Below, piece by piece: positions 21,624 through 30,393 of a stretch of DNA of 64,000 bases (position 1 is its first letter; each line of letters opens with the position of its first letter). Position numbers and translations under genes: made by a program. Under the pieces are notes generated by a model, which was not told where the DNA came from, searched no databases, and saw only the letters and a list, made by a program, of their open reading frames with translations. The DNA is from Escherichia phage Ec_Makalu_002: sequence record MN709127.1. The stretch is one strand, 5' to 3'.

Positions 21624-22142
21624 TTAGTTATTTTTTAATTGCTCATCTTGCAATAATGCAATCACATGCTGGCGATGTTCTTCCGATTGAGGAACACCGA
21701 AAAAGTTTGTTTTGTAGAAATACTCTAATCGGTCTTCTCGTGTGCTCTCTTCCATCATGATCGCGGGTAGTCCAAGATTTCGGAAACGTCGCTTTTCTGC
21801 TGGCGTAAAATCACTGTAATACAACATAGAATCATCATTACCAGCAATGCTAAACTCATCCTTCATAAAGGAGAATATTGCGTTTAAACGCTGTTTACCG
21901 TCCACGATTTCGATCTCATAGCGAGAGCCATCATCAATCTTAGCCATTGCGATAGCACCAACCGGAAAATCATTAATCAGGTTTTCGATAAACATACGTT
22001 TGTTTTCGGTGTCCCATACCAAAGGACGCTGATAATCTGGGTTCATGTTGATATAGCCATCTTCTAACCACGCCTCATAAACAGAGATGACAAAGTTTTT
22101 AGTATTGGTATAGTAACGGCGTTTAGGCGTTAAACGGTTCAT
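21624..22142 (-). CDS. DUF262 / ParB-like (GmrS N-terminal type) domain protein
   Basis: ATG 22142 with AGGAG RBS; DYQRPLVWD...FPVGAI...IVDGKQRLNAI matches the DUF262 signature; no C-terminal nuclease domain. Confidence 0.6.
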   Translation of the reverse strand: MNRLTPKRRYYTNTKNFVISVYEAWLEDGYINMNPDYQRPLVWDTENKRMFIENLINDFPVGAIAMAKIDDGSRYEIEIVDGKQRLNAIFSFMKDEFSIAGNDDSMLYYSDFTPAEKRRFRNLGLPAIMMEESTREDRLEYFYKTNFFGVPQSEEHRQHVIALLQDEQLKNN

Positions 22143-22143
22143 G

Positions 22144-22476
22144 TTATAGTCTCCTGAATGGATCATCACGTAAATCAATATCTTTTAAGAACTCATCCCA
22201 TGAATGGCGGATAATGTTCTTAATTCTCCAGATAAGCGCAGGGATTGAACGCTCTCCCATCTGGAAGTAAGGATCATATGATCCATATGCCCAATATGCT
22301 ACTACAATTCCACAATCGGCGCAATAATATTCTATTTCACTTGCTGGCGACCAAAGTCCATCAATATGATCACGGATCTTGCTTTCGATGTTATGGCTAT
22401 GGCAATCAGGGCAACGGATGCAATGACCTTGTTTATCGTAATTTGACGTTAGCGAATACTTAAACAATCTCATCAT
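22144..22476 (-). CDS. Zn-ribbon protein (110 aa)
   Basis: CIRCPDC ... CADCG (two CxxC pairs); stop is 1 nt before the next start. Confidence 0.55.
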   Translation of the reverse strand: MMRLFKYSLTSNYDKQGHCIRCPDCHSHNIESKIRDHIDGLWSPASEIEYYCADCGIVVAYWAYGSYDPYFQMGERSIPALIWRIKNIIRHSWDEFLKDIDLRDDPFRRL

Positions 22477-23189
22477 AGATCCTTATTGGCTTCAAATACT
22501 GCCTTTGCGAATCCTCGCGGGGTAAGTGACCTGATAGTCTTTGTTCTGGTTCCTTTCCCGCCTAGCTTAGAATGCTGTTTACTGTACCCTTTATTAATCT
22601 GCAACGGTTTCTTTTCTGGCATTATAAAGCCTTGTCCGGTCCATAAGCAAGTCTTTTTCGGGTACATATCACGGGCGGCAATATACTCAGGAAACGTAGG
22701 ATGCTTATCATCTTCCGGCAAATAACCGCCATATTCCCACGGATGGAACATGTAATCAGGCTTACGCCACATGCTAGAGATAACGCTTACAGGATTCTCT
22801 ATCATGTAGGGAACTCCTAGCCATTCACCCAAATAAGCGGTTATTTTAGCTGCCCTTACATCATGAACTTGAATTAATGGTCCTTGTTCTCGTTTCTTTC
22901 GTTCAAAGTGCGCAGCGCCACTAACAGCTAAATTGGTGCATGGTGGGAATGCAAAGATAATATCCGGTTTCCCCCATTCAAGGTCCATTGCTCTTTCCAG
23001 CCAATTTAAATCAATCCATGTGTTTACATATGTAATGTTTGGATGTTCAAATCGGGTATTATATTTTTTGTATGTACCGTGGTCGCCATCGTCAGCATTA
23101 AAGCAGATCACCTTATGACCTGCTTTAGCCCATTCTAACCCCATTATCCCCGATCCGTCAAAGTTGCAGAATATTAATTTTTGTTTCAT
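22473..23189 (-). CDS. compact C5-cytosine methyltransferase-like protein
   Basis: Motif I-like NFDGSGIMG, motif IV-like FAFPPCTNLAVSGA (PC with catalytic Cys), motif VI-like MIENPV, C-terminal RSLTPRGFAKA; only 238 aa. Confidence 0.5.
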   Translation of the reverse strand: MKQKLIFCNFDGSGIMGLEWAKAGHKVICFNADDGDHGTYKKYNTRFEHPNITYVNTWIDLNWLERAMDLEWGKPDIIFAFPPCTNLAVSGAAHFERKKREQGPLIQVHDVRAAKITAYLGEWLGVPYMIENPVSVISSMWRKPDYMFHPWEYGGYLPEDDKHPTFPEYIAARDMYPKKTCLWTGQGFIMPEKKPLQINKGYSKQHSKLGGKGTRTKTIRSLTPRGFAKAVFEANKDL

Positions 23190-23431: not shown

Positions 23432-23679
23432 GCTGCCCCCATTGGTTTGATAGTAACAGAATCTAAAAGACCTTTGTTAGCCAGTTCGCGGCAAGTTTTC
23501 AGATCCGCAACTTCCCAGCCAGCCGCAATAAGGTTATCAATGAGGCTGTTAGCAACTTCTTCGCTCATGAAAGAGCACTGTTTGCCGATGGTGTAGCGTA
23601 CACGCTGTAATTTCAGTTTACGGAAGCCTTTAACGTTCAGGTCTTTAGCGATTTTCTTTGCGGTTTCGATGTTAGCCAT
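23428..23679 (-). CDS. hypothetical protein (83 aa), first gene of the operon
   Basis: Track ORF; promoter cassette immediately upstream. Confidence 0.55.
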   Translation of the reverse strand: MANIETAKKIAKDLNVKGFRKLKLQRVRYTIGKQCSFMSEEVANSLIDNLIAAGWEVADLKTCRELANKGLLDSVTIKPMGAA

Positions 23680-23719
23680 TGTTTGATTCTCCTAAGTGGT
23701 ATCTCGTCTTGATGGTTGT

Positions 23720-23748
23720 ATTGTAGGGGAGTTATCCTCCCCTGTCAA
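23720..23748 (-). promoter_or_regulatory. PeSL-like early promoter for operon 23679..21624
   Basis: Minus TTGACA-17-TACAAT; palindrome aggggagttatcctcccct in the spacer. Confidence 0.5.
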
Positions 23749-23762
23749 CACTTTTTATAAAA

Positions 23763-23930
23763 TTATTTGTTAATTTCTGGTGCGTTGCTAGGATAGTAAC
23801 CTTCTTTAACTCCGAGGTATTTCGCAACCATCCCTACAATCTTCTGTGCTACTACAATGTCAAATTTCAGATAATCTTCGCCGTGGGTTTCAATGATATA
23901 TGCTTCACATGCTGCTTTAGTCTCGAACAT
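23763..23930 (-). CDS. small protein (55 aa), copy 1 of a duplicated gene
   Basis: MFETKAACEAYIIETHGEDYLKFDIVVAQKIVGMVAKYLGVKEGYYPSNAPEINK; near-identical to 27046..27213. Confidence 0.55.
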   Translation of the reverse strand: MFETKAACEAYIIETHGEDYLKFDIVVAQKIVGMVAKYLGVKEGYYPSNAPEINK

Positions 23931-23963
23931 TTTGATTCTCCTATTTCGTTTCGGTATGTGTGT

Positions 23964-23992
23964 ATTATAGGGGATCTCCCGATCCCCGTCAA
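23964..23992 (-). promoter_or_regulatory. PeSL-like early promoter cassette
   Basis: Minus TTGACG-17-TATAAT; palindrome ggggatctcccgatcccc. Confidence 0.55.
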
Positions 23993-24006
23993 CAACTTTT
24001 TTAAAA

Positions 24007-24288
24007 TTATTCGTGATTAGTTTCGATATTGTGCATTTTGCACCAGTTCAGCCAATCGCCAAGATCTTGATAGTTGATGCTTTTATCTGCTGCCATCGTT
24101 TTTGTCTTGATACCCATATGTGCGTTATGAGTAAGCATTTTTACAGTGAACTCAATTTTATCGCCTTTAGCTTTAACATCAACCAGTTTGGTCCACTGGC
24201 TACCAGCACCGCGAATGTTCATACCAACGATGTTTCCGATGTATGCTTCTTTGTTGTTCAGGATTTCGGTTGCTTTGATGAATTTCAT
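24007..24288 (-). CDS. hypothetical protein (93 aa)
   Basis: Track ORF with RBS and promoter cassette. Confidence 0.55.
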   Translation of the reverse strand: MKFIKATEILNNKEAYIGNIVGMNIRGAGSQWTKLVDVKAKGDKIEFTVKMLTHNAHMGIKTKTMAADKSINYQDLGDWLNWCKMHNIETNHE

Positions 24289-24321
24289 TTTTGATTCTCC
24301 AGTTCGTTTCGGTATGGGTGT

Positions 24322-24350
24322 ATTATGCTATGTTCTTACTTTGGTGTCAA
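24322..24350 (-). promoter_or_regulatory. PeSL-like early promoter cassette
   Basis: Minus TTGACA-17-CATAAT. Confidence 0.5.
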
Positions 24351-24358
24351 CAACTTTT

Positions 24359-24628
24359 TTAGATATTTTCAGAAATAAATTTTAAAACTTGACGTAAATG
24401 TTTCTCATCTTTGATAGTCGCCGGAAGTTCTTCTTTTACTTCCTGTGCAAGATAGATATTTCCGTTCCAAGTGAAAGACCCGTCTTCGTTTACGCGATAG
24501 CTGAACATCCATTCGCAATCATTTTCGATTTCATATACACACAGAAGGGTGTAATCTTCAAAGCTATTGATTTCAAGGTCGAAGCCGTGGCGTTTTGCAA
24601 AGTTGGTAGTGGTTTTAGTCAGTGCCAT
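24359..24628 (-). CDS. hypothetical protein (89 aa)
   Basis: Track ORF with RBS. Confidence 0.55.
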   Translation of the reverse strand: MALTKTTTNFAKRHGFDLEINSFEDYTLLCVYEIENDCEWMFSYRVNEDGSFTWNGNIYLAQEVKEELPATIKDEKHLRQVLKFISENI

Positions 24629-24668
24629 TGTTTGATTCTCCTAAGTGGTATCTCGTTTCGATGGGTGT

Positions 24669-24697
24669 ATTATGCTATAGGCGTGATCAGGTGTCAA
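24669..24697 (-). promoter_or_regulatory. PeSL-like early promoter cassette
   Basis: Minus TTGACA-17-CATAAT. Confidence 0.5.
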
Positions 24698-24721
24698 TGC
24701 CTTTTTTAAAATTTTATGCAA

Positions 24722-24747
24722 TAAAAAAGCCGACACTAAGGTCGGCT
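24722..24747 (-). terminator. rho-independent terminator
   Basis: Minus-strand hairpin gccgac-N6-gtcggc followed by U-run. Confidence 0.55.
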
Positions 24748-24754
24748 AATAAAA

Positions 24755-25063
24755 TCATTTAGACAAATAATCATTCAGTGCAATCCGGTCGGCATGTTCC
24801 GGCGTTACATCAATCGCAATCACTTTAACGCGTGCTTTCTTGCGACCTGGGTTTTCTCGTAACCAGTGCTCATGACCGTGAACATTTTTATACTGCGATG
24901 CTTCTTCGAAGGTACGGATCGGACCAGGGTAATCAGCGTAAAGGATCTCTAGGTCATCGGTGATGTAAAAATATACGTTGTAATTACTGTTCTCTAGCTT
25001 AAGCAGAGACTTTCGGAACATTGGGAGATTTTCGCGGGTAAATTCAAAAGTAATATCTTTCAT
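24755..25063 (-). CDS. HxHW family paralog A (about 102 aa)
   Basis: Internal ATG 25063 with GAGGA RBS; motifs YFYITDDL ... HGHEHWL ... VIAIDV. Confidence 0.6.
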   Translation of the reverse strand: MKDITFEFTRENLPMFRKSLLKLENSNYNVYFYITDDLEILYADYPGPIRTFEEASQYKNVHGHEHWLRENPGRKKARVKVIAIDVTPEHADRIALNDYLSK

Positions 25064-25085
25064 AGTATTATCCTCAATAGTTGGA

Positions 25086-25108
25086 TGAAAAGGGGGCTTA
25101 ACGCCCCA
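25086..25108 (-). terminator. short hairpin terminator
   Basis: Hairpin GGGGC-UUAAC-GCCCC followed by U-run on the minus strand; same type as 21064..21086. Confidence 0.45.
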
Positions 25109-25112
25109 TATA

Positions 25113-25400
25113 TTAAAACAGTCCTTCCTGTACACCGTAGTAGAGTTCGTCGCTGATAATTTCATTAATGCGACGGTGTGCATATTCCTGATTTGCGAAG
25201 TTGTCAGCAAGTTCTACTTTAGTTTCACCGTCATGAGTCCATTTAGTGATAACTTTACCATCTGCAAATTTGAAGTTGAACTCTTTAGCTACTGCATCGC
25301 GTACCAGACGTGCGAACTTGTTGTTACGGATTGCATTATCGGTTTCGTGTGCAGCGTGAGCAAATTTGTTAACTTTCAGAGTGATAGTGATGTATGCCAT
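25113..25400 (-). CDS. hypothetical protein (95 aa)
   Basis: Track ORF with RBS. Confidence 0.55.
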   Translation of the reverse strand: MAYITITLKVNKFAHAAHETDNAIRNNKFARLVRDAVAKEFNFKFADGKVITKWTHDGETKVELADNFANQEYAHRRINEIISDELYYGVQEGLF

Positions 25401-25446
25401 AATTTGATTCTCCTAGTTAGAAAGTGTATCTCGTTTCGATGGGTGT

Positions 25447-25475
25447 ATTATGCTATACACCCGATCTTATGTCAA
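25447..25475 (-). promoter_or_regulatory. PeSL-like early promoter cassette
   Basis: Minus TTGACA-17-CATAAT; stem-loop gggtgtat-N6-atacaccc (25441-25462). Confidence 0.55.
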
Positions 25476-25483
25476 CACTTTTT

Positions 25484-25762
25484 TTATAAAATAATTTTTT
25501 GATATTTTTCTATGATGTTTGTGTAATCCACATCAACCGCTATCACCGTTGCTTCGAATCCACCGTTTAGCCAATGGCTATGGTCATGATCGTGAAAGAA
25601 ACCAAGACCAGTACGAAGACCTTCTTTATATTCGGCGCGTACATTTAGATCATCATCGATAAACAGATAAAACCATGAATTTTTACTAGGATTGATGATA
25701 CAACCTTTCAGATTAGGGAGAATATCACGACTAAGAATAAACTTATCACCTACTTTGAACAT
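25484..25762 (-). CDS. HxHW family paralog B (about 92 aa)
   Basis: ATG 25762 with GAGGA RBS; FYLFIDDDL ... HDHDHSHWL ... VIAVDV. Confidence 0.6.
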   Translation of the reverse strand: MFKVGDKFILSRDILPNLKGCIINPSKNSWFYLFIDDDLNVRAEYKEGLRTGLGFFHDHDHSHWLNGGFEATVIAVDVDYTNIIEKYQKIIL

Positions 25763-25766
25763 AATA

Positions 25767-26087
25767 TTAGTCCTCACTTATAAGGTCAAACCAATTGTTT
25801 TTCGCATAATGCTTAATGCGTGCTTGATCTGCTTCCGCTGGTGATAGATTCCATGCAACCACTACAACTTCTGACGCGTCGTCATCCGTTTCTGATACCC
25901 AATGATTGTGATTCATACAGTTATTTGCGATCGAGTGAGCAAATGATTTCATCACTGGAGACGTATAATCATAGTAACGGATTTTCAGATTTTCATCAAC
26001 ATACAAGTAGATCGTATAAGGTTTATATTCAGTAACCAGTAACAGACAGTTACGCAATTCTGGGAAAATCTTTTTAGTTAATTTCAT
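25767..26087 (-). CDS. HxHW family paralog C (about 106 aa)
   Basis: ATG 26087 with GAGGA RBS; YLYVDENL ... HNHW ... VVVVAW. Confidence 0.55.
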   Translation of the reverse strand: MKLTKKIFPELRNCLLLVTEYKPYTIYLYVDENLKIRYYDYTSPVMKSFAHSIANNCMNHNHWVSETDDDASEVVVVAWNLSPAEADQARIKHYAKNNWFDLISED

Positions 26088-26088
26088 T

Positions 26089-26307
26089 TTATAATCCTCG
26101 GTCGCGGCTATAGTACACGGTACGCCATACAATTTCATGTTTCGTGTCGCTCCAGCACACGATCTCATTTACTCTTAAATCTTTGTTATCAACAAAAGAT
26201 GAACATTGTGACGCTTCTTTCATCATTTTATCTGCTGTTTTCTCATCAAATACAGCACAGATTTCTTTATACACTCGATAATCTTTGAATTGACTCTGGA
26301 TACCCAT
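26089..26307 (-). CDS. small protein, member 1 of a tandem paralog pair
   Basis: QFKDYRVYKEICAVFDEKTADKMMKEASQCSSF, homologous to the next ORF; start codon uncertain. Confidence 0.45.
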   Translation of the reverse strand: MGIQSQFKDYRVYKEICAVFDEKTADKMMKEASQCSSFVDNKDLRVNEIVCWSDTKHEIVWRTVYYSRDRGL

Positions 26308-26524
26308 AATTAACACCATTCCAACCAATTGTTTTTGAGAAAACGTTTATCCACTGTTGAGTGTAGCATGTTTCTTTCCATGATACAATACGAGTAGAAT
26401 AATGGTTTTTGTTTCCAGAAAAGGACGGGCATTTTGATGCATCTTCCATCATCTTTTCGGCGAACTCCGCGTCATATACCCGCAGGATCTGTTGATATGC
26501 TTTATAATCTTTAAATTTGCTCAT
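26267..26524 (-). CDS. small protein, member 2 of a tandem paralog pair
   Basis: MSKFKDYKAYQQILRVYDAEFAEKMMEDASKCPSF; 3' end overlaps the previous ORF. Confidence 0.5.
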   Translation of the reverse strand: MSKFKDYKAYQQILRVYDAEFAEKMMEDASKCPSFSGNKNHYSTRIVSWKETCYTQQWINVFSKTIGWNGVNYGYPESIQRLSSV

Positions 26525-26789
26525 AATTGTTAACTACCTTATCAGCTTCTTTTATTGTTTTTACATCAACTGCGATAATCCGTAAAGGTTCGTCGAAGGT
26601 CCACCAGTGGTCATGAATATCAGCTTGTGATTTATCACCAAAGGAATCACGAATATCATTTTTACATTTATAGCTAATATGGCCTTCATAGTCAACATAA
26701 AGGTAATTATCGAAAATCGGCGTTTTTAAGATCATACCGAAAAATCTTTCTTTGTGTGTCTTATCAAGTGTTGCAGTAATTCGCATCAT
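26511..26789 (-). CDS. HxHW family paralog D (92 aa)
   Basis: AGAGGAA RBS; YLYVDYEG ... HDHWW ... IIAVDV. Confidence 0.6.
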   Translation of the reverse strand: MMRITATLDKTHKERFFGMILKTPIFDNYLYVDYEGHISYKCKNDIRDSFGDKSQADIHDHWWTFDEPLRIIAVDVKTIKEADKVVNNYEQI

Positions 26790-26801
26790 AATATATTCCT
26801 C

Positions 26802-26981
26802 TTAGAAAGGGATGGTCATTTCTTGAGCTTGTACATTCTCGTTAGGATTAAACTTCATCCAACCGATATTGTCTACCAGCATATGTACATTTTTATCATA
26901 TCCTACGTGAGTAGTCAACACTAAATGTGCTTTACCTTCAACGATGATTTCCATGTACTTCTGAACTTCGATAGCTTTCAT
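26802..26981 (-). CDS. hypothetical 59-aa protein
   Basis: ATG behind a promoter cassette; below track cut-off. Confidence 0.4.
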   Translation of the reverse strand: MKAIEVQKYMEIIVEGKAHLVLTTHVGYDKNVHMLVDNIGWMKFNPNENVQAQEMTIPF

Positions 26982-27013
26982 TTTGATTCTCCGTTTGTTG
27001 TCTTGATGGGAGT

Positions 27014-27042
27014 ATCTTACTACTCCCTTTAATCATTGTCAA
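27014..27042 (-). promoter_or_regulatory. PeSL-like early promoter cassette
   Basis: Minus TTGACA-17-TAAGAT; stem-loop gggagtatcttactactccc. Confidence 0.5.
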
Positions 27043-27045
27043 CTA

Positions 27046-27213
27046 TTATTTGTTAATTTCCGGTGCGTTGCTCGGATAGTAACCTTCTTTAACACCCAGA
27101 TATTTTGCAACCATTCCGGTGATCTTCTGTGCTACTACGATATCGAATTTCAGGTAGTCTTCACCGTGGTTTGCTACAATGTATGCTTCGCATTCTGCTT
27201 TAGTCTGGAACAT
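27046..27213 (-). CDS. small protein (55 aa), copy 2 of the duplicated gene
   Basis: MFQTKAECEAYIVANHGEDYLKFDIVVAQKITGMVAKYLGVKEGYYPSNAPEINK; ATG 27213. Confidence 0.55.
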   Translation of the reverse strand: MFQTKAECEAYIVANHGEDYLKFDIVVAQKITGMVAKYLGVKEGYYPSNAPEINK

Positions 27214-27247
27214 TTTTGATTCTCCTATATCTCGTTGGTATGTGTGC

Positions 27248-27276
27248 ATTATAGGGGATCGGTGATCCCCTGTCAA
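27248..27276 (-). promoter_or_regulatory. PeSL-like early promoter cassette
   Basis: Minus TTGACA-17-TATAAT; palindrome ggggatcggtgatcccc. Confidence 0.55.
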
Positions 27277-27283
27277 CAACTTT

Positions 27284-27580
27284 TTATGATTTTTCTTTAT
27301 ATGCGTATTGAATAAATTGGTCCGCCACTTCGTCGGCTTTTTCGGGTTTGACTTCTGACGCCAGGACAATAGCTAGATCGGTTTCGTCGTTCCCGTCATA
27401 CCAATGATTATGAGTGTCTTTTTCTTTGATATAGAATGAGTCATTTGGAGTTGGACGACAATATACGTCTAAATTCTCGTCGATGTAAAAGATCCAATCT
27501 TCATAAAGAATAACCGTATTAGCAAGGTTCTTATTACCTTCAACGAAAGGTTCGGTTACAAACAAATCAGTACGTTCCAT
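27284..27580 (-). CDS. HxHW family paralog E (98 aa)
   Basis: GAGGA RBS; IFYIDENL ... HNHWY ... AIVLA. Confidence 0.55.
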   Translation of the reverse strand: MERTDLFVTEPFVEGNKNLANTVILYEDWIFYIDENLDVYCRPTPNDSFYIKEKDTHNHWYDGNDETDLAIVLASEVKPEKADEVADQFIQYAYKEKS

Positions 27581-27595
27581 AGTATTTTCCTCAAA

Positions 27596-27757
27596 TTAAG
27601 AAAAAGCGTTGAAAACAACCGCCAACACAACTACGTTAGCGATAAGGCTTAAAAAGCATTTCTTGAAACTTTCAGTGCAGATACCAATACTGGCAGGAAT
27701 TACACCGATCACGATAGCATAAAGAATAACTGCGATTTCTTGAAATACACCGTTCAT
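27596..27757 (-). CDS. small two-helix membrane protein (53 aa)
   Basis: ATG with GAGGA RBS; MNGVFQEIAVILYAIVIGVIPASIGICTESFKKCFLSLIANVVVLAVVFNAFS. Confidence 0.45.
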   Translation of the reverse strand: MNGVFQEIAVILYAIVIGVIPASIGICTESFKKCFLSLIANVVVLAVVFNAFS

Positions 27758-27814
27758 AATATTATCCTCAAAGTATGGGAGAGTGTTACCCCTCCCGATG
27801 ATTGTTATATTGCA

Positions 27815-28147
27815 TCACACAAAATGGCGTGTCAATGCTTCTTTTGCGGTTCCGCTAAGATTCTCGATCTCTCCTGGCATAACATCAACCGCCAGAACTT
27901 CTACAACATCCTCTGTTCCTAACCAGTGAGTATGACCTTTGTAGAACTTGATGCCCATATTGCCTTCTTCGTCCCATTTAACGCCCCATTTAACGTTATC
28001 ACTAGCCCACCACACATCACCGTCGATAAAGTTGATGTAAAGCACACTACGCCACATTGAATTAGTTACTTTCAATACCGCGCCTTTCATCTCTTCCACG
28101 GTGTGGTCTTCCATTTTGAAGACCTCGCCTACCTGAACTTTTGCCAT
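27815..28147 (-). CDS. HxHW family paralog F (110 aa)
   Basis: RBS GAGAGGTG; VLYINFIDGDV ... KGHTHWL ... VLAVDV. Confidence 0.6.
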   Translation of the reverse strand: MAKVQVGEVFKMEDHTVEEMKGAVLKVTNSMWRSVLYINFIDGDVWWASDNVKWGVKWDEEGNMGIKFYKGHTHWLGTEDVVEVLAVDVMPGEIENLSGTAKEALTRHFV

Positions 28148-28164
28148 TTAGTCACCTCTCTTTA

Positions 28165-28380
28165 TTACATAACAATCACGCCAGCCGTTGAAAGTTGATG
28201 TTTCAACTGAGCATTTTCTGCTACTGTCAAATCAATGATTTCTTGTGACGCTGCAATCATATAGCCATTGGTGATATTGTTTTGCATCAGTTCAATGGTT
28301 TCTTCGTTGTAGCGGATTTTAGCGATGATTTCGTTGAAGTTCATGTTTGATTCTCCTAGTTCGTTTCGGTATGTGTGCAT
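28165..28380 (-). CDS. hypothetical protein (71 aa)
   Basis: Track ORF with AGGAGAA RBS. Confidence 0.55.
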   Translation of the reverse strand: MHTYRNELGESNMNFNEIIAKIRYNEETIELMQNNITNGYMIAASQEIIDLTVAENAQLKHQLSTAGVIVM

Positions 28381-28408
28381 TATAGGGGATCTCCCGACCC
28401 CCTGTCAA
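28379..28408 (-). promoter_or_regulatory. PeSL-like early promoter cassette
   Basis: Minus TTGACA-18-TATAAT; near-palindrome ggggatctcccgaccccc. Confidence 0.55.
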
Positions 28409-28421
28409 CAACTTTTTTGAA

Positions 28422-28898
28422 TTATTTTTCTTGATGCTCGCGCTCGTACTTTTCGAAATAAAATTCTACTGGCTGATCGTGGATTGAAAGCAAGCCAAAG
28501 CGTTTAGCCGCACGTAATCCCATGTTACGTTGAATGTACTTCTGGAAGTTCTCGCGTATACACTTACGCCAGTATTCTAAGCCCATACAGCTTTTGTAAA
28601 GATTGCATTGCACACAAGCCGGATTCATGTTGTCAAGTATATCGTGCTCCGGTTTATGCATTCCTACAACCTTATACTTCCACGACCCATCATCATTACG
28701 GGCAATTCGTCCATTTTCATCATAGACTACTTTTGAGCGTCGCAATACTGGTTTGATGTGGTCTGCGTGCCAGCGATCCCCTAGTTCCTCGCCACAATAG
28801 GCACAACGTCCACCGTATTTCATTTTCAGGATCTGGCGTTGCTCTTTCTTTGACAATTTTTTAGGTTTAGGGGCTTTCGCCCCTTCATTATCACACAT
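28422..28898 (-). CDS. HNH endonuclease
   Basis: CAYCGEEL...WHADHIKP...CVQCN (His-Me finger with flanking Cys pairs). Confidence 0.7.
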   Translation of the reverse strand: MCDNEGAKAPKPKKLSKKEQRQILKMKYGGRCAYCGEELGDRWHADHIKPVLRRSKVVYDENGRIARNDDGSWKYKVVGMHKPEHDILDNMNPACVQCNLYKSCMGLEYWRKCIRENFQKYIQRNMGLRAAKRFGLLSIHDQPVEFYFEKYEREHQEK

Positions 28899-30393
28899 CG
28901 AATACCTCTTTTACTGTATTTGCAGTGGTCTTGTCGTAGCGAATACGTTTGATGATTGGGAGAAATAAAGAGAACTCCGGTTCATCTTCTTTACGTGATT
29001 TGCTGCGGATATATCCGTTGCATGTCATCTCAATGACTTTTCCAATCAGGTTATGACGGTCAGCCCATAACATTTCTCGGTCAAGTTCATTTCGACGATC
29101 GAACGGAATTACACGTTCAATACCATCATCACCTTTTTCGGTTGTGGTGTCTGTCAATCCCGATCCGGTGTTAGTCATCATTCGTCCGCACGCACTACGG
29201 ACAGTAAAACCGCCTACCTTGTTAGGTTCTTTACTGTGCGGATATACATCAACAATTTCCGCGTCGAAGTCAATCACTTCTTTAAATTTAACCTGGTCTT
29301 TACTGCGACGATCTTCAAATACACCATGTAAATTTTTAAGGATAATACCTTCTAATCCCATGTTGACATAACGATGATATACTTCGCGAGCTTCATCGAT
29401 ATTGTTAACTACAGTATTTTCGATTATCTGAACACGAGGATCGTTAAGTTCTTCAACAATCTGTTTTAGTTCTTCGAATCGATCTTTATATTGCTTCGTT
29501 GCTTTCTCGTTTCCGTAATACACATCACGGTCGATAACATCCCAGACAGTGTAAACAATACATTGGGCTTCTTCTTTTGGAATAGTTCCTTTCAGTGATT
29601 TGTTGAGGATACCATTTCCGGTCTGACGGTCTGCAACAACGGATTCTTTCACTGCTTCCGCTACTGGCGTTAATGGCATTTCCTCTTCTTCAAATATCCA
29701 TGATAGAGTACCATCATAAACGCTCTCAACGAAGTTCTGCGCTGGTGTTTGAGAAAGGGTAGGCATATATACCAACTCACCATCTAAAACAATTCCACGG
29801 CCTCGTAGACGCTCTAAAACAGCAAACAAATCATCCAGCCCCTGATAGGTATTACCTGAACGGGTATAGATTGCTAATGTTTCTCCGTCAATATCAGCCA
29901 TACCACGAGCGCCATCGCTTTTAAGTTGTGCATACGCCGGATATTTGATATTGGCAATAGTCTTATCAGAACATGACGATGCAAGGTGGCACGGCTGCTG
30001 AGGAATCAGCTTCTTCCATACCTTGTTTGCGGTGGTAGCGGAACAACCGCATTCCAGATCACGATTCAGGACCATCATTGCAACTTTAGCATCATCTTCT
30101 GACAAGCAAGTCAGAGTATCGGTAACTAGCTGTAATGCAGCATTACCAGTTACTTGACGCGTGGCAAGTTTATTTTTAAAGACCTGTAATGCACCGGATA
30201 AAGACAATACAGACGAATAGCGAGACGGTTTATCGTATTTCTTTACGCCAAACGTAACCTGCTTGCAATATGCCAGATAAAAGCATTCTTTCAGCGTTTC
30301 ATTGCTTGCAGATTCTTTCAGGATCTTTTCTTTCAGCGATGTTTTGTCAGTAGCTGCAAGCTGATTAATGATATTAAGAATTGACATTTTCAC
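28891..30393 (-). CDS. 30: ATP-dependent DNA ligase gp30
   Basis: 500 aa; adenylation motif AQLKSDGARG; overall resemblance to T4 DNA ligase. Confidence 0.9.
   Translation of the reverse strand: MKMSILNIINQLAATDKTSLKEKILKESASNETLKECFYLAYCKQVTFGVKKYDKPSRYSSVLSLSGALQVFKNKLATRQVTGNAALQLVTDTLTCLSEDDAKVAMMVLNRDLECGCSATTANKVWKKLIPQQPCHLASSCSDKTIANIKYPAYAQLKSDGARGMADIDGETLAIYTRSGNTYQGLDDLFAVLERLRGRGIVLDGELVYMPTLSQTPAQNFVESVYDGTLSWIFEEEEMPLTPVAEAVKESVVADRQTGNGILNKSLKGTIPKEEAQCIVYTVWDVIDRDVYYGNEKATKQYKDRFEELKQIVEELNDPRVQIIENTVVNNIDEAREVYHRYVNMGLEGIILKNLHGVFEDRRSKDQVKFKEVIDFDAEIVDVYPHSKEPNKVGGFTVRSACGRMMTNTGSGLTDTTTEKGDDGIERVIPFDRRNELDREMLWADRHNLIGKVIEMTCNGYIRSKSRKEDEPEFSLFLPIIKRIRYDKTTANTVKEVFDV

What the first reader, a model, noticed from the sequence alone, without database searches (positions are those of the whole stretch)
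24755..28147. Six-member paralogous family of small proteins with a conserved H-x-H-W ... (V/I)AVDV motif
Six ORFs of about 92-110 aa (24755..25063, 25484..25762, 25767..26087, 26511..26789, 27284..27580, 27815..28147) share an N-terminal hYhD..L.h.Y block and a C-terminal HxH(x)HW(L/Y) ... VIAVDV..A block, e.g. HGHEHWL/VIAIDV, HDHDHSHWL/VIAVDV, HDHWW/IIAVDV, HTHWL/VLAVDV. That is an unusual amplification within 3.4 kb. The His cluster suggests metal binding. I do not recognise the family. Divergence between copies fits diversifying selection, as expected for host-interaction or anti-defence proteins.
Basis: seen in the sequence. Interest (0 to 1): 0.75.

Follow-up and report, generated by a model that had tools for sequence, protein, structure and literature searches.

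The report
Six-copy orphan early-gene family, RB49-like phage
Six neighbouring genes in an RB49-like (Krischvirus) coliphage encode old, diverged copies of one small protein, apparently made early in infection, that resembles no characterised family or solved fold; the family is real and kept by selection, but its function is still a guess.

Summary
All six ORFs lie on the minus strand, each with an ATG and a GAGG-type ribosome-binding site. They align in register at 22-29% identity to the first copy. In leave-one-out profile tests each copy scores 24-52 bits, against at most 12.5 bits for any other window ORF or shuffle.

The window is a Krischvirus (RB49-like, T4-type) genome. The genes sit in the variable region between the alt ADP-ribosyltransferase and the gene 30 ligase, behind repeated sigma70-type PeSL promoter cassettes.

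All six copies are intact and in the same order in the 10 genomes compared. Among 50,697 sequenced phages, members were found only in Krischvirus records. A profile search of 1.84 billion representative proteins found 19 hits, all small phage proteins plus one two-domain fusion.

Orthologue dN/dS is 0.11-0.25, which is purifying, not diversifying. Only His-Trp is invariant; the first His is lost in some natural variants, so a canonical HxH metal site is not a family trait.

My best guess is dimer-forming binding proteins aimed at host targets. This is inferred, with low confidence.

The parts
24755..25063 (-). fam1, 102 aa (orthologue of RB49p197; phrog_9345). HEHW at 24863-24874, VIAIDV at 24806-24823.
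   Evidence: AlphaFold2 model pLDDT 80.8
25484..25762 (-). fam2, 92 aa (RB49p199; phrog_17255). His-rich HDHDHSHW, with HSHW at 25571-25582; VIAVDV at 25529-25546.
   Evidence: AlphaFold2 model pLDDT 88.3, pTM 0.82
25767..26087 (-). fam3, 106 aa (RB49p200; phrog_9345). HNHW at 25899-25910; variant strand VVAWNL at 25845-25862. Its stop lies 4 nt upstream of the fam2 start.
26511..26789 (-). fam4, 92 aa (RB49p203; phrog_15972). HDHW at 26604-26615; IIAVDV at 26562-26579.
27284..27580 (-). fam5, 98 aa (RB49p206; phrog_15965). The most acidic copy (pI 4.3) and the most variable between genomes (68-100% aa identity). HNHW at 27401-27412; VLASEV at 27350-27367.
27815..28147 (-). fam6, 110 aa (RB49p208; phrog_16486). 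HTHW at 27923-27934; VLAVDV at 27881-27898. The loop before the His-Trp motif varies in length between genomes (100, 106 or 110 aa).
28333..28433 (-). PeSL-type promoter and leader cassette (TTGACA, 18 nt with a GC palindrome, TATAAT, GGAGAATCAAA Shine-Dalgarno). It heads the unit: 59-aa gene, fam6, 53-aa hydrophobic gene, fam5.
   Evidence: PeSL definition in PMC2839356
27201..27301 (-). PeSL-type cassette heading the unit: 55-aa gene, 59-aa gene, fam4, 85-aa gene, 72-aa gene, fam3, fam2. It overlaps the 3' end of fam5.
25400..25500 (-). PeSL-type cassette heading the unit: 95-aa gene, then fam1.
24728..24747 (-). Terminator-like hairpin plus T-run just downstream of fam1. A second, weaker one lies at 25093-25107, between the 95-aa gene and fam1.
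   Evidence: terminators are annotated at the same places in G37-3 and Makalu_003

Best explanation
SHOWN: the six ORFs are anciently duplicated copies of one small, soluble alpha/beta domain of about 90-110 aa. The family is specific to Krischvirus (RB49-like T4-type coliphages) and a few uncultured relatives. The genes lie in the variable region that these phages carry between alt and the gene 30 ligase. They are packed into three minus-strand units, each headed by a sigma70-consensus PeSL promoter cassette. All six are retained in the same order and are under purifying selection. INFERRED: they are immediate-early accessory proteins with no enzymatic activity. The conserved Y-h-D hairpin, His-Trp turn and VhAxDV-P-x-E-A-D strand-to-helix junction would form a common scaffold. 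The variable loop before the His-Trp motif and the variable surfaces would give each copy its own partner. They probably work as dimers, homo- or heteromeric, that bind and neutralise or redirect different host proteins, for host takeover or anti-defence. Which targets they bind is unknown.
Confidence: 0.4

Rival explanations
1. The proteins are small-molecule binders, for example sponges for host immune-signalling nucleotides, comparable in principle to Tad1, Tad2 or Acb2. The invariant His-Trp with the conserved His and Tyr would form the pocket, and different copies would bind different ligands.
Confidence: 0.15
2. The proteins bind metal (Zn, Ni or Fe) or are small metalloenzymes that use the H-x-H motif.
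Against: The first His is Ser or absent in natural fam5 orthologues that otherwise look intact. No third ligand is conserved, since the Asp of VDV varies to N, E or G. There is no match to cupin, MBL, JAMM or HIT families or folds above noise. A single invariant His cannot form a mononuclear site unless it is shared across a dimer.
Confidence: 0.1
3. The six copies are subunits of one hetero-oligomeric phage complex serving a phage-specific process, for example DNA metabolism or the still unidentified Krischvirus cytosine-hypermodification pathway, rather than six independent host-directed factors.
For: All six copies are retained in every genome examined. L021 still has six even though one slot holds a different subtype. 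A fusion of two diverged domains exists. The cluster lies near the Dcm-like methyltransferase at 22473-23189. A 2026 paper reports an unexplained glucosyl-methyl-dC pathway in Krischvirus SAP (PMC13390438).
Against: The genes are spread over three transcription units and interleaved with unrelated small genes. A distant relative carries only two copies, both fam5-like. SAP (modified) and TB34 (unmodified) are 99.96% identical and both carry this region, so presence of the family does not track the modification. A 100-aa domain with no enzyme-like fold is an unlikely modification enzyme.
Confidence: 0.1
4. The genes are dispensable ORFan cargo carried along by PeSL-mediated shuffling, with little or no function.
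For: The region is the kind of variable region described as rich in non-essential ORFans (PMC2839356). Neighbouring gene content differs between genomes; for example, RB49p192, p195-196.1, p210 and p211 have no counterpart in the window.
Against: All six are intact in 10 of 10 genomes with dN/dS 0.11-0.25 despite dS up to 0.49. The core motifs are invariant among orthologues. Every copy has a good ribosome-binding site. The family persists in divergent uncultured relatives.
Confidence: 0.08

Closest known systems
PHROG families 9345, 17255, 15972, 15965 and 16486 (all 'unknown function')
   Same: The six proteins match these models end to end (E 1.7e-52 to 3.4e-65 for their own family). Several weak cross-hits link the families.
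   Different: PHROGs keeps them as five separate orphan families. Here they are shown to be one superfamily with a common predicted fold, expanded six-fold in one locus.
PeSL-plus-ORFan cassettes of RB49 and phi1 variable regions (Arbiol et al. 2010, PMC2839356; Comeau et al. 2014, PMC4122927)
   Same: Same phage genus and the same region between ligase and alt; RB49p210 lies in it and ORFan210 and PeSL211/210 were the elements studied experimentally. The region carries the same repeated promoter and stem-loop cassettes.
   Different: A term search of that paper found no mention of paralogues, a gene family or these ORF numbers. None of the six genes is the first gene after a cassette. Unlike the mobile ORFans, the six are fixed in every genome examined.
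Small phage or bacterial inhibitor proteins with the nearest, sub-threshold folds: Tis1, the immunity protein of the T6SS toxin Tas1 (PDB 6ox6_B), and AcrIIA7 (8kbi_A)
   Same: Similar size and alpha/beta layout. Tis1 aligns over 63-67 of its 76 residues at 2.7-3.0 A with both models.
T4 early small host-takeover and anti-defence proteins (for example Arn, AsiA, Dmd and the internal proteins), as a functional class
   Same: Small proteins of T4-type phages that act on host targets. The comparison rests on general knowledge of T4 biology and on the T4 annotations seen.
   Different: No homology. A family profile scanned against all 1410 T4 ORFs of at least 40 aa gives nothing better than E 0.19, and that hit is in a non-genic frame. 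T4 has no comparable six-copy family at this locus.

Membership tests
Single paralogous family (the six ORFs with each other) | Each member is recognised by a profile built from the others, well above background, and the motifs are in register | tested here: met
   Leave-one-out scores are 24-52 bits against no more than 12.5 bits for background; in-register alignment
Single paralogous family (the six ORFs with each other) | Common three-dimensional fold | tested here: met
   The fam1 and fam2 models have the same order of secondary-structure elements, apart from one extra helix in the fam1 loop. BFVD models of other copies superpose on the fam1 model at TM 0.66-0.78.
PeSL-associated early ORFan genes of T4-type variable regions | Located in a variable region between conserved core genes | tested here: met
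   The genes lie between alt and gene 30, and T4 has only alt.1 there
PeSL-associated early ORFan genes of T4-type variable regions | Transcribed from sigma70-consensus promoter and stem-loop cassettes | tested here: inconclusive
   Seven cassettes lie on the coding strand, three of them upstream of the units that hold the six genes. Transcription itself was not measured.
PeSL-associated early ORFan genes of T4-type variable regions | Variable presence between closely related phages (mobile cassette behaviour) | tested here: not met
   All six are present in the same order in 10 of 10 genomes. Only one slot replacement was seen, in L021.
H-x-H metal-site families (cupin, metallo-beta-lactamase HxHxDH, JAMM/MPN, HIT) | Complete, invariant ligand motif | tested here: not met
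   Only one His is invariant, the first His is lost in P0083, P0085 and P0087, and no acidic ligand is conserved
H-x-H metal-site families (cupin, metallo-beta-lactamase HxHxDH, JAMM/MPN, HIT) | Family fold or profile match | tested here: not met
H-x-H metal-site families (cupin, metallo-beta-lactamase HxHxDH, JAMM/MPN, HIT) | Bound metal | not testable with these tools
   Needs ICP-MS or native mass spectrometry on purified protein
KOW / SH3-like domain (one metagenome annotation calls a fam2 orthologue 'KOW2-KOW3 of Spt5') | KOW profile match or SH3-like barrel fold | tested here: not met
Anti-defence nucleotide sponges (Tad2, Acb2 and similar) | Sequence or fold similarity to a known sponge family | tested here: not met
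Anti-defence nucleotide sponges (Tad2, Acb2 and similar) | Binding of signalling nucleotides and rescue from a defence system | not testable with these tools
   Needs binding assays and phage infection assays
Known anti-phage defence proteins (PADLOC) | Profile match | tested here: not met
   No hit at E up to 1

The most novel reading that the evidence does not exclude
The six copies, together with a probable seventh diverged member found in some genomes and at prophage edges in Salmonella, form a new superfamily of dimeric phage inhibitor or decoy proteins with a fold not yet seen in the PDB. Each copy would disarm a different E. coli defence or host factor. This would be a built-in panel of counter-defences in phages that, according to two papers read here, lack the known hydroxymethyl-cytosine synthesis and glucosylation genes.
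Probability: 0.2. Interest if true: 0.7.

Novelty: new member of a known kind. Interest (0 to 1): 0.45.

Why it matters
T4-type variable regions hold many small genes of unknown function, and the literature read here proposes that such ORFans often encode adaptive functions. This work merges five orphan PHROG families into one family and gives it a confident predicted fold with no solved relative. It also shows that all six copies are retained in every genome examined and are under purifying selection. That combination makes a compact, well-defined target set for deletion, pull-down and structural work in RB49-like phages. Phages of this genus are isolated for, and discussed in, phage therapy. 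If the copies prove to be inhibitors of distinct host defences, the family would be a new anti-defence fold and a clear case of subfunctionalisation after tandem duplication in a virulent phage. If they prove dispensable, the strong conservation would itself need explaining.

Tried and rejected
1. Sequence libraries: Pfam on single proteins and on 31 members, NCBIfam, PADLOC, and a PDB sequence profile. Nothing was significant. The PROCT (E 0.0034, below cut-off), Cupin_2, T4_Y03C and TTL hits were judged to be noise.
3. T4 homologue: a family profile scanned against all T4 ORFs of at least 40 aa found none.
4. Wider relatives: word-indexed searches with two alignments returned only Krischvirus-type proteins.
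5. Folding the two-domain fusion P0088: MAFFT split each single-domain homologue across the two halves (A4). That would have misled AlphaFold, so the job was not run.
6. DNA mimicry: charge ranges from pI 9.1 to 4.2 across members, so acidity is not a family trait.
7. Literature: no paper mentions these locus tags. Nothing was found on Krischvirus anti-defence. A term search of the PeSL paper found no mention of paralogues or a gene family.
8. At about 25% identity synonymous sites are saturated, so orthologue comparisons were used instead.
Full report
WHAT THE WINDOW IS. A megablast of 24000-28500 finds 58 phage records. Listed identities are 92-98% and all named hits are Krischvirus (RB49-like 'pseudo-T-even' coliphages such as kaaroe, RB49, G37-3 and GEC-3S-type phages). 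In RB49 the homologous stretch lies between alt (RB49p184) and the HNH endonuclease plus gene 30 ligase (RB49p212 and p213). It consists of about 28 small 'hypothetical' genes, all on one strand. In the window the same borders are the Dcm-like methyltransferase at 22473-23189 and the HNH and ligase genes at 28422-30393. In T4, alt and gene 30 are separated only by the 62-aa gene alt.1. This is therefore one of the variable regions of the T4-type genome plan. It is the region that holds RB49p210, and ORFan210 and PeSL211/210 are the elements Arbiol et al. used to demonstrate PeSL-mediated shuffling (PMC2839356).

THE OBSERVATION. The six coordinates are exact. Each is a minus-strand ATG ORF with a GAGG-type ribosome-binding site 5-9 nt upstream. 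MAFFT aligns them in register: H-x-H-W and one Ala are invariant, and identity to the first copy is 22-29%. Because E-values within a six-sequence set mean little, I ran a leave-one-out test. A profile of five copies was searched against the held-out copy, all other window ORFs of at least 40 aa, and 1000 shuffles of the held-out copy. The held-out copy always came first (24-52 bits; E 7.6e-15 to 2.2e-06), and nothing else exceeded 12.5 bits. No further member exists in the window. PHROGs places the six in five families of unknown function that cross-hit one another.

DISTRIBUTION. A word-indexed search of 5.8 billion protein clusters with the six-copy profile returned 87 proteins. All were orthologues of one or another of the six, and those with long contigs sat on contigs of 164-176 kb. 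None carried a Pfam domain. An exhaustive HMMER search of 1.84 billion representatives with a 29-sequence profile found only 19 proteins at E 0.001 or better. These were the known subtypes, a dozen more diverged proteins of 84-111 aa, and one 203-aa protein made of two family domains. tblastn of two diverged members against 50,697 sequenced phage genomes hit only Krischvirus records, 55 and 56 of them.

The diverged members come from uncultured contigs:
- L002 (2.1 kb) carries five family domains in four adjacent genes, including the fusion.
- L003 (a 20-kb T4-like contig) carries two fam5-like copies in the same ligase-to-alt interval.
- L021 (a 168.9-kb Krischvirus-like contig) again has six copies, but the fam2 slot holds a second fam3-like gene.

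A family profile scanned against every T4 ORF of at least 40 aa finds nothing (best E 0.19, in a non-genic frame).

CONSERVATION AND SELECTION. I fetched the region from nine further Krischvirus genomes. All six genes are intact and in the same order in all ten genomes. Nei-Gojobori estimates over all pairs give dN/dS of 0.25, 0.11, 0.19, 0.14, 0.22 and 0.16 for fam1 to fam6. Most neighbouring genes (small ORFs, the HNH endonuclease and the methyltransferase) give 0.00-0.10; two small neighbours give 0.19 and 0.28. The family is thus under purifying selection, somewhat relaxed relative to its surroundings. fam5 (dS 0.49; 68-100% aa identity) and fam1 (dS 0.23) carry much more allelic diversity than their neighbours, which suggests exchange of diverged alleles. 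Amino-acid changes avoid the core motifs. In fam6 the indels fall in the loop before the His-Trp motif. Site-level tests need more genomes.

THE HIS MOTIF. In the 31-sequence alignment only His-Trp is invariant. The first His and the Tyr of the hairpin are conserved at 90% or more. Natural fam5 orthologues have S-N-H-W or lack the first His altogether (P0083, P0085, P0087). The Asp of VDV is N, E or G in other members. A canonical mononuclear H-x-H(-D) site is therefore not a conserved property. fam2 alone has a conspicuous HDHDHSHW run. A site shared across a dimer cannot be excluded.

EXPRESSION CONTEXT. The minus strand carries seven copies of an approximately 85-nt cassette. Each has:
- an A/T-rich upstream tract;
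- a TTGACA-type -35 hexamer (TTGACG in one copy);
- a 17-18 nt spacer, which is a GC-rich palindrome in four copies;
- a TATAAT, CATAAT or TACAAT -10 hexamer;
- a conserved leader;
- GGAGAATCAAA followed by ATG.

These are the PeSLs, shown by reporter assays to be strong sigma70 promoters and terminators (PMC2839356). The six genes fall into three such units and are never the first gene of a unit:
- cassette at 28408: a 59-aa gene, fam6, a 53-aa hydrophobic gene, fam5;
- cassette at 27276: 55-aa and 59-aa genes, fam4, 85-aa and 72-aa genes, fam3, fam2;
- cassette at 25475: a 95-aa gene, then fam1, then a terminator-like hairpin.

Early transcription is inferred, not measured.

MECHANISM. The shown facts are: a small soluble domain with no enzyme-like relative; a probable early gene; restriction to one genus; six ancient copies all retained; a conserved scaffold with a variable loop and surfaces; and a natural two-domain fusion whose halves are 32% identical. 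From these, the reading I favour is a set of non-enzymatic binding proteins, probably dimeric, each tuned to a different host target for takeover or counter-defence (confidence about 0.4). According to two papers read here, Krischviruses lack the known hydroxymethyl-cytosine synthesis and glucosylation genes, as well as denB, ndd and alc (PMC12115623; PMC13390438). That makes additional protein-based counter-measures plausible, but this is only context.

The rivals are:
- ligand or nucleotide sponges (0.15);
- metal-binding proteins or metalloenzymes (0.10);
- one hetero-oligomeric complex serving a phage process such as the unexplained Krischvirus cytosine modification (0.10);
- dispensable cargo (0.08).

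None of these can be separated further without coordinates, multimer prediction or experiments.

NOVELTY. The genes are annotated as 'hypothetical' in the records I examined, and they sit in PHROGs as separate orphans. I found no paper that mentions them. What is new here is the unification into one family, its distribution, its selection regime, and the lack of any solved structural relative. As a kind of thing it is familiar: a lineage-specific accessory family in a T4-type variable region. As a protein family it is uncharacterised.

Noticed in passing
window 23673-23773, 23917-24017, 24275-24375, 24622-24722, 25400-25500, 27201-27301, 28333-28433 (minus strand): Seven copies of an approximately 85-nt promoter and leader cassette. 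Each has an A/T tract, a TTGACA-type -35, a spacer that is a GGGGATC..GATCCCC-type palindrome in four copies, a TATAAT-type -10, a conserved leader, GGAGAATCAAA and ATG. These are the PeSL elements of Arbiol et al. 2010. Each one heads a different small gene, never one of the six family genes.
   Followed up: yes
window 23763-23930 and 27046-27213 (minus strand): A dispersed pair of 55-aa genes, 89% identical in protein. They sit inside a 172-nt DNA repeat (85% identical), each directly behind a PeSL cassette. This looks like a recent duplication, consistent with PeSL-mediated shuffling. Function unknown.
   Followed up: partly
window 26089-26307 and 26267-26524 (minus strand): A second tandem paralogue pair (72 and 85 aa; 43% identity over 61 residues) lies between fam4 and fam3, with the two ORFs overlapping. 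No Pfam match. The 72-aa gene shows high allelic diversity between genomes (59-100% aa identity; dN/dS 0.28).
   Followed up: partly
L007 5916-6182 and L021 7918-8184; absent from the window, where it would sit next to fam6 near 28150: An 88-aa gene present beside fam6 in G37-3 and L021 (an 88-aa gene is annotated in the same slot in pEJ01) looks like a seventh, more diverged family member with H-L in place of H-W. An 88-aa JSE protein matches the fam1 model in BFVD at probability 0.99, and hhalign is in register at E 0.016. A 65%-identical homologue (P0104, 97 aa) sits at the outer edge of lambdoid prophages in Salmonella enterica, next to host genes.
   Followed up: partly
L021 9989-10671 (168.9-kb Krischvirus-like metagenome contig): This relative keeps six family genes, but the slot held by fam2 in the window is occupied by a second fam3-like gene. 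Copies can therefore be replaced within the array while the count stays at six.
   Followed up: partly
L002 823-1434 (metagenome contig, sample SRR8048117): A 203-aa protein that is a head-to-tail fusion of two diverged family domains (32% identical to each other). It sits in a 2.1-kb stretch carrying five family domains in four adjacent genes.
   Followed up: partly
window 25113-25400 (minus strand): The 95-aa gene just upstream of fam1 has no amino-acid change at all across 10 genomes, although dS is 0.13 (dN/dS about 0). It is by far the most constrained small gene in the region. It has no Pfam match.
   Followed up: no
window 22473-23189 (minus strand) and 21624-22178: A Dcm-like C5-cytosine methyltransferase and a gene whose orthologue carries a GmrSD_N (DUF262-type) Pfam domain border the region. 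A 2026 paper (PMC13390438) reports that the Krischvirus SAP carries glucosylated methyl-dC made by an unidentified pathway, while the 99.96%-identical TB34 does not. Genes in this neighbourhood could be candidates, but nothing here tests that.
   Followed up: no
window 27596-27757 (minus strand): A 53-aa, very hydrophobic ORF (probably a membrane peptide) lies between fam6 and fam5. With the thresholds used it was recovered in only one of the nine other genomes; the others have annotated ORFs of 53-63 aa in that slot.
   Followed up: no
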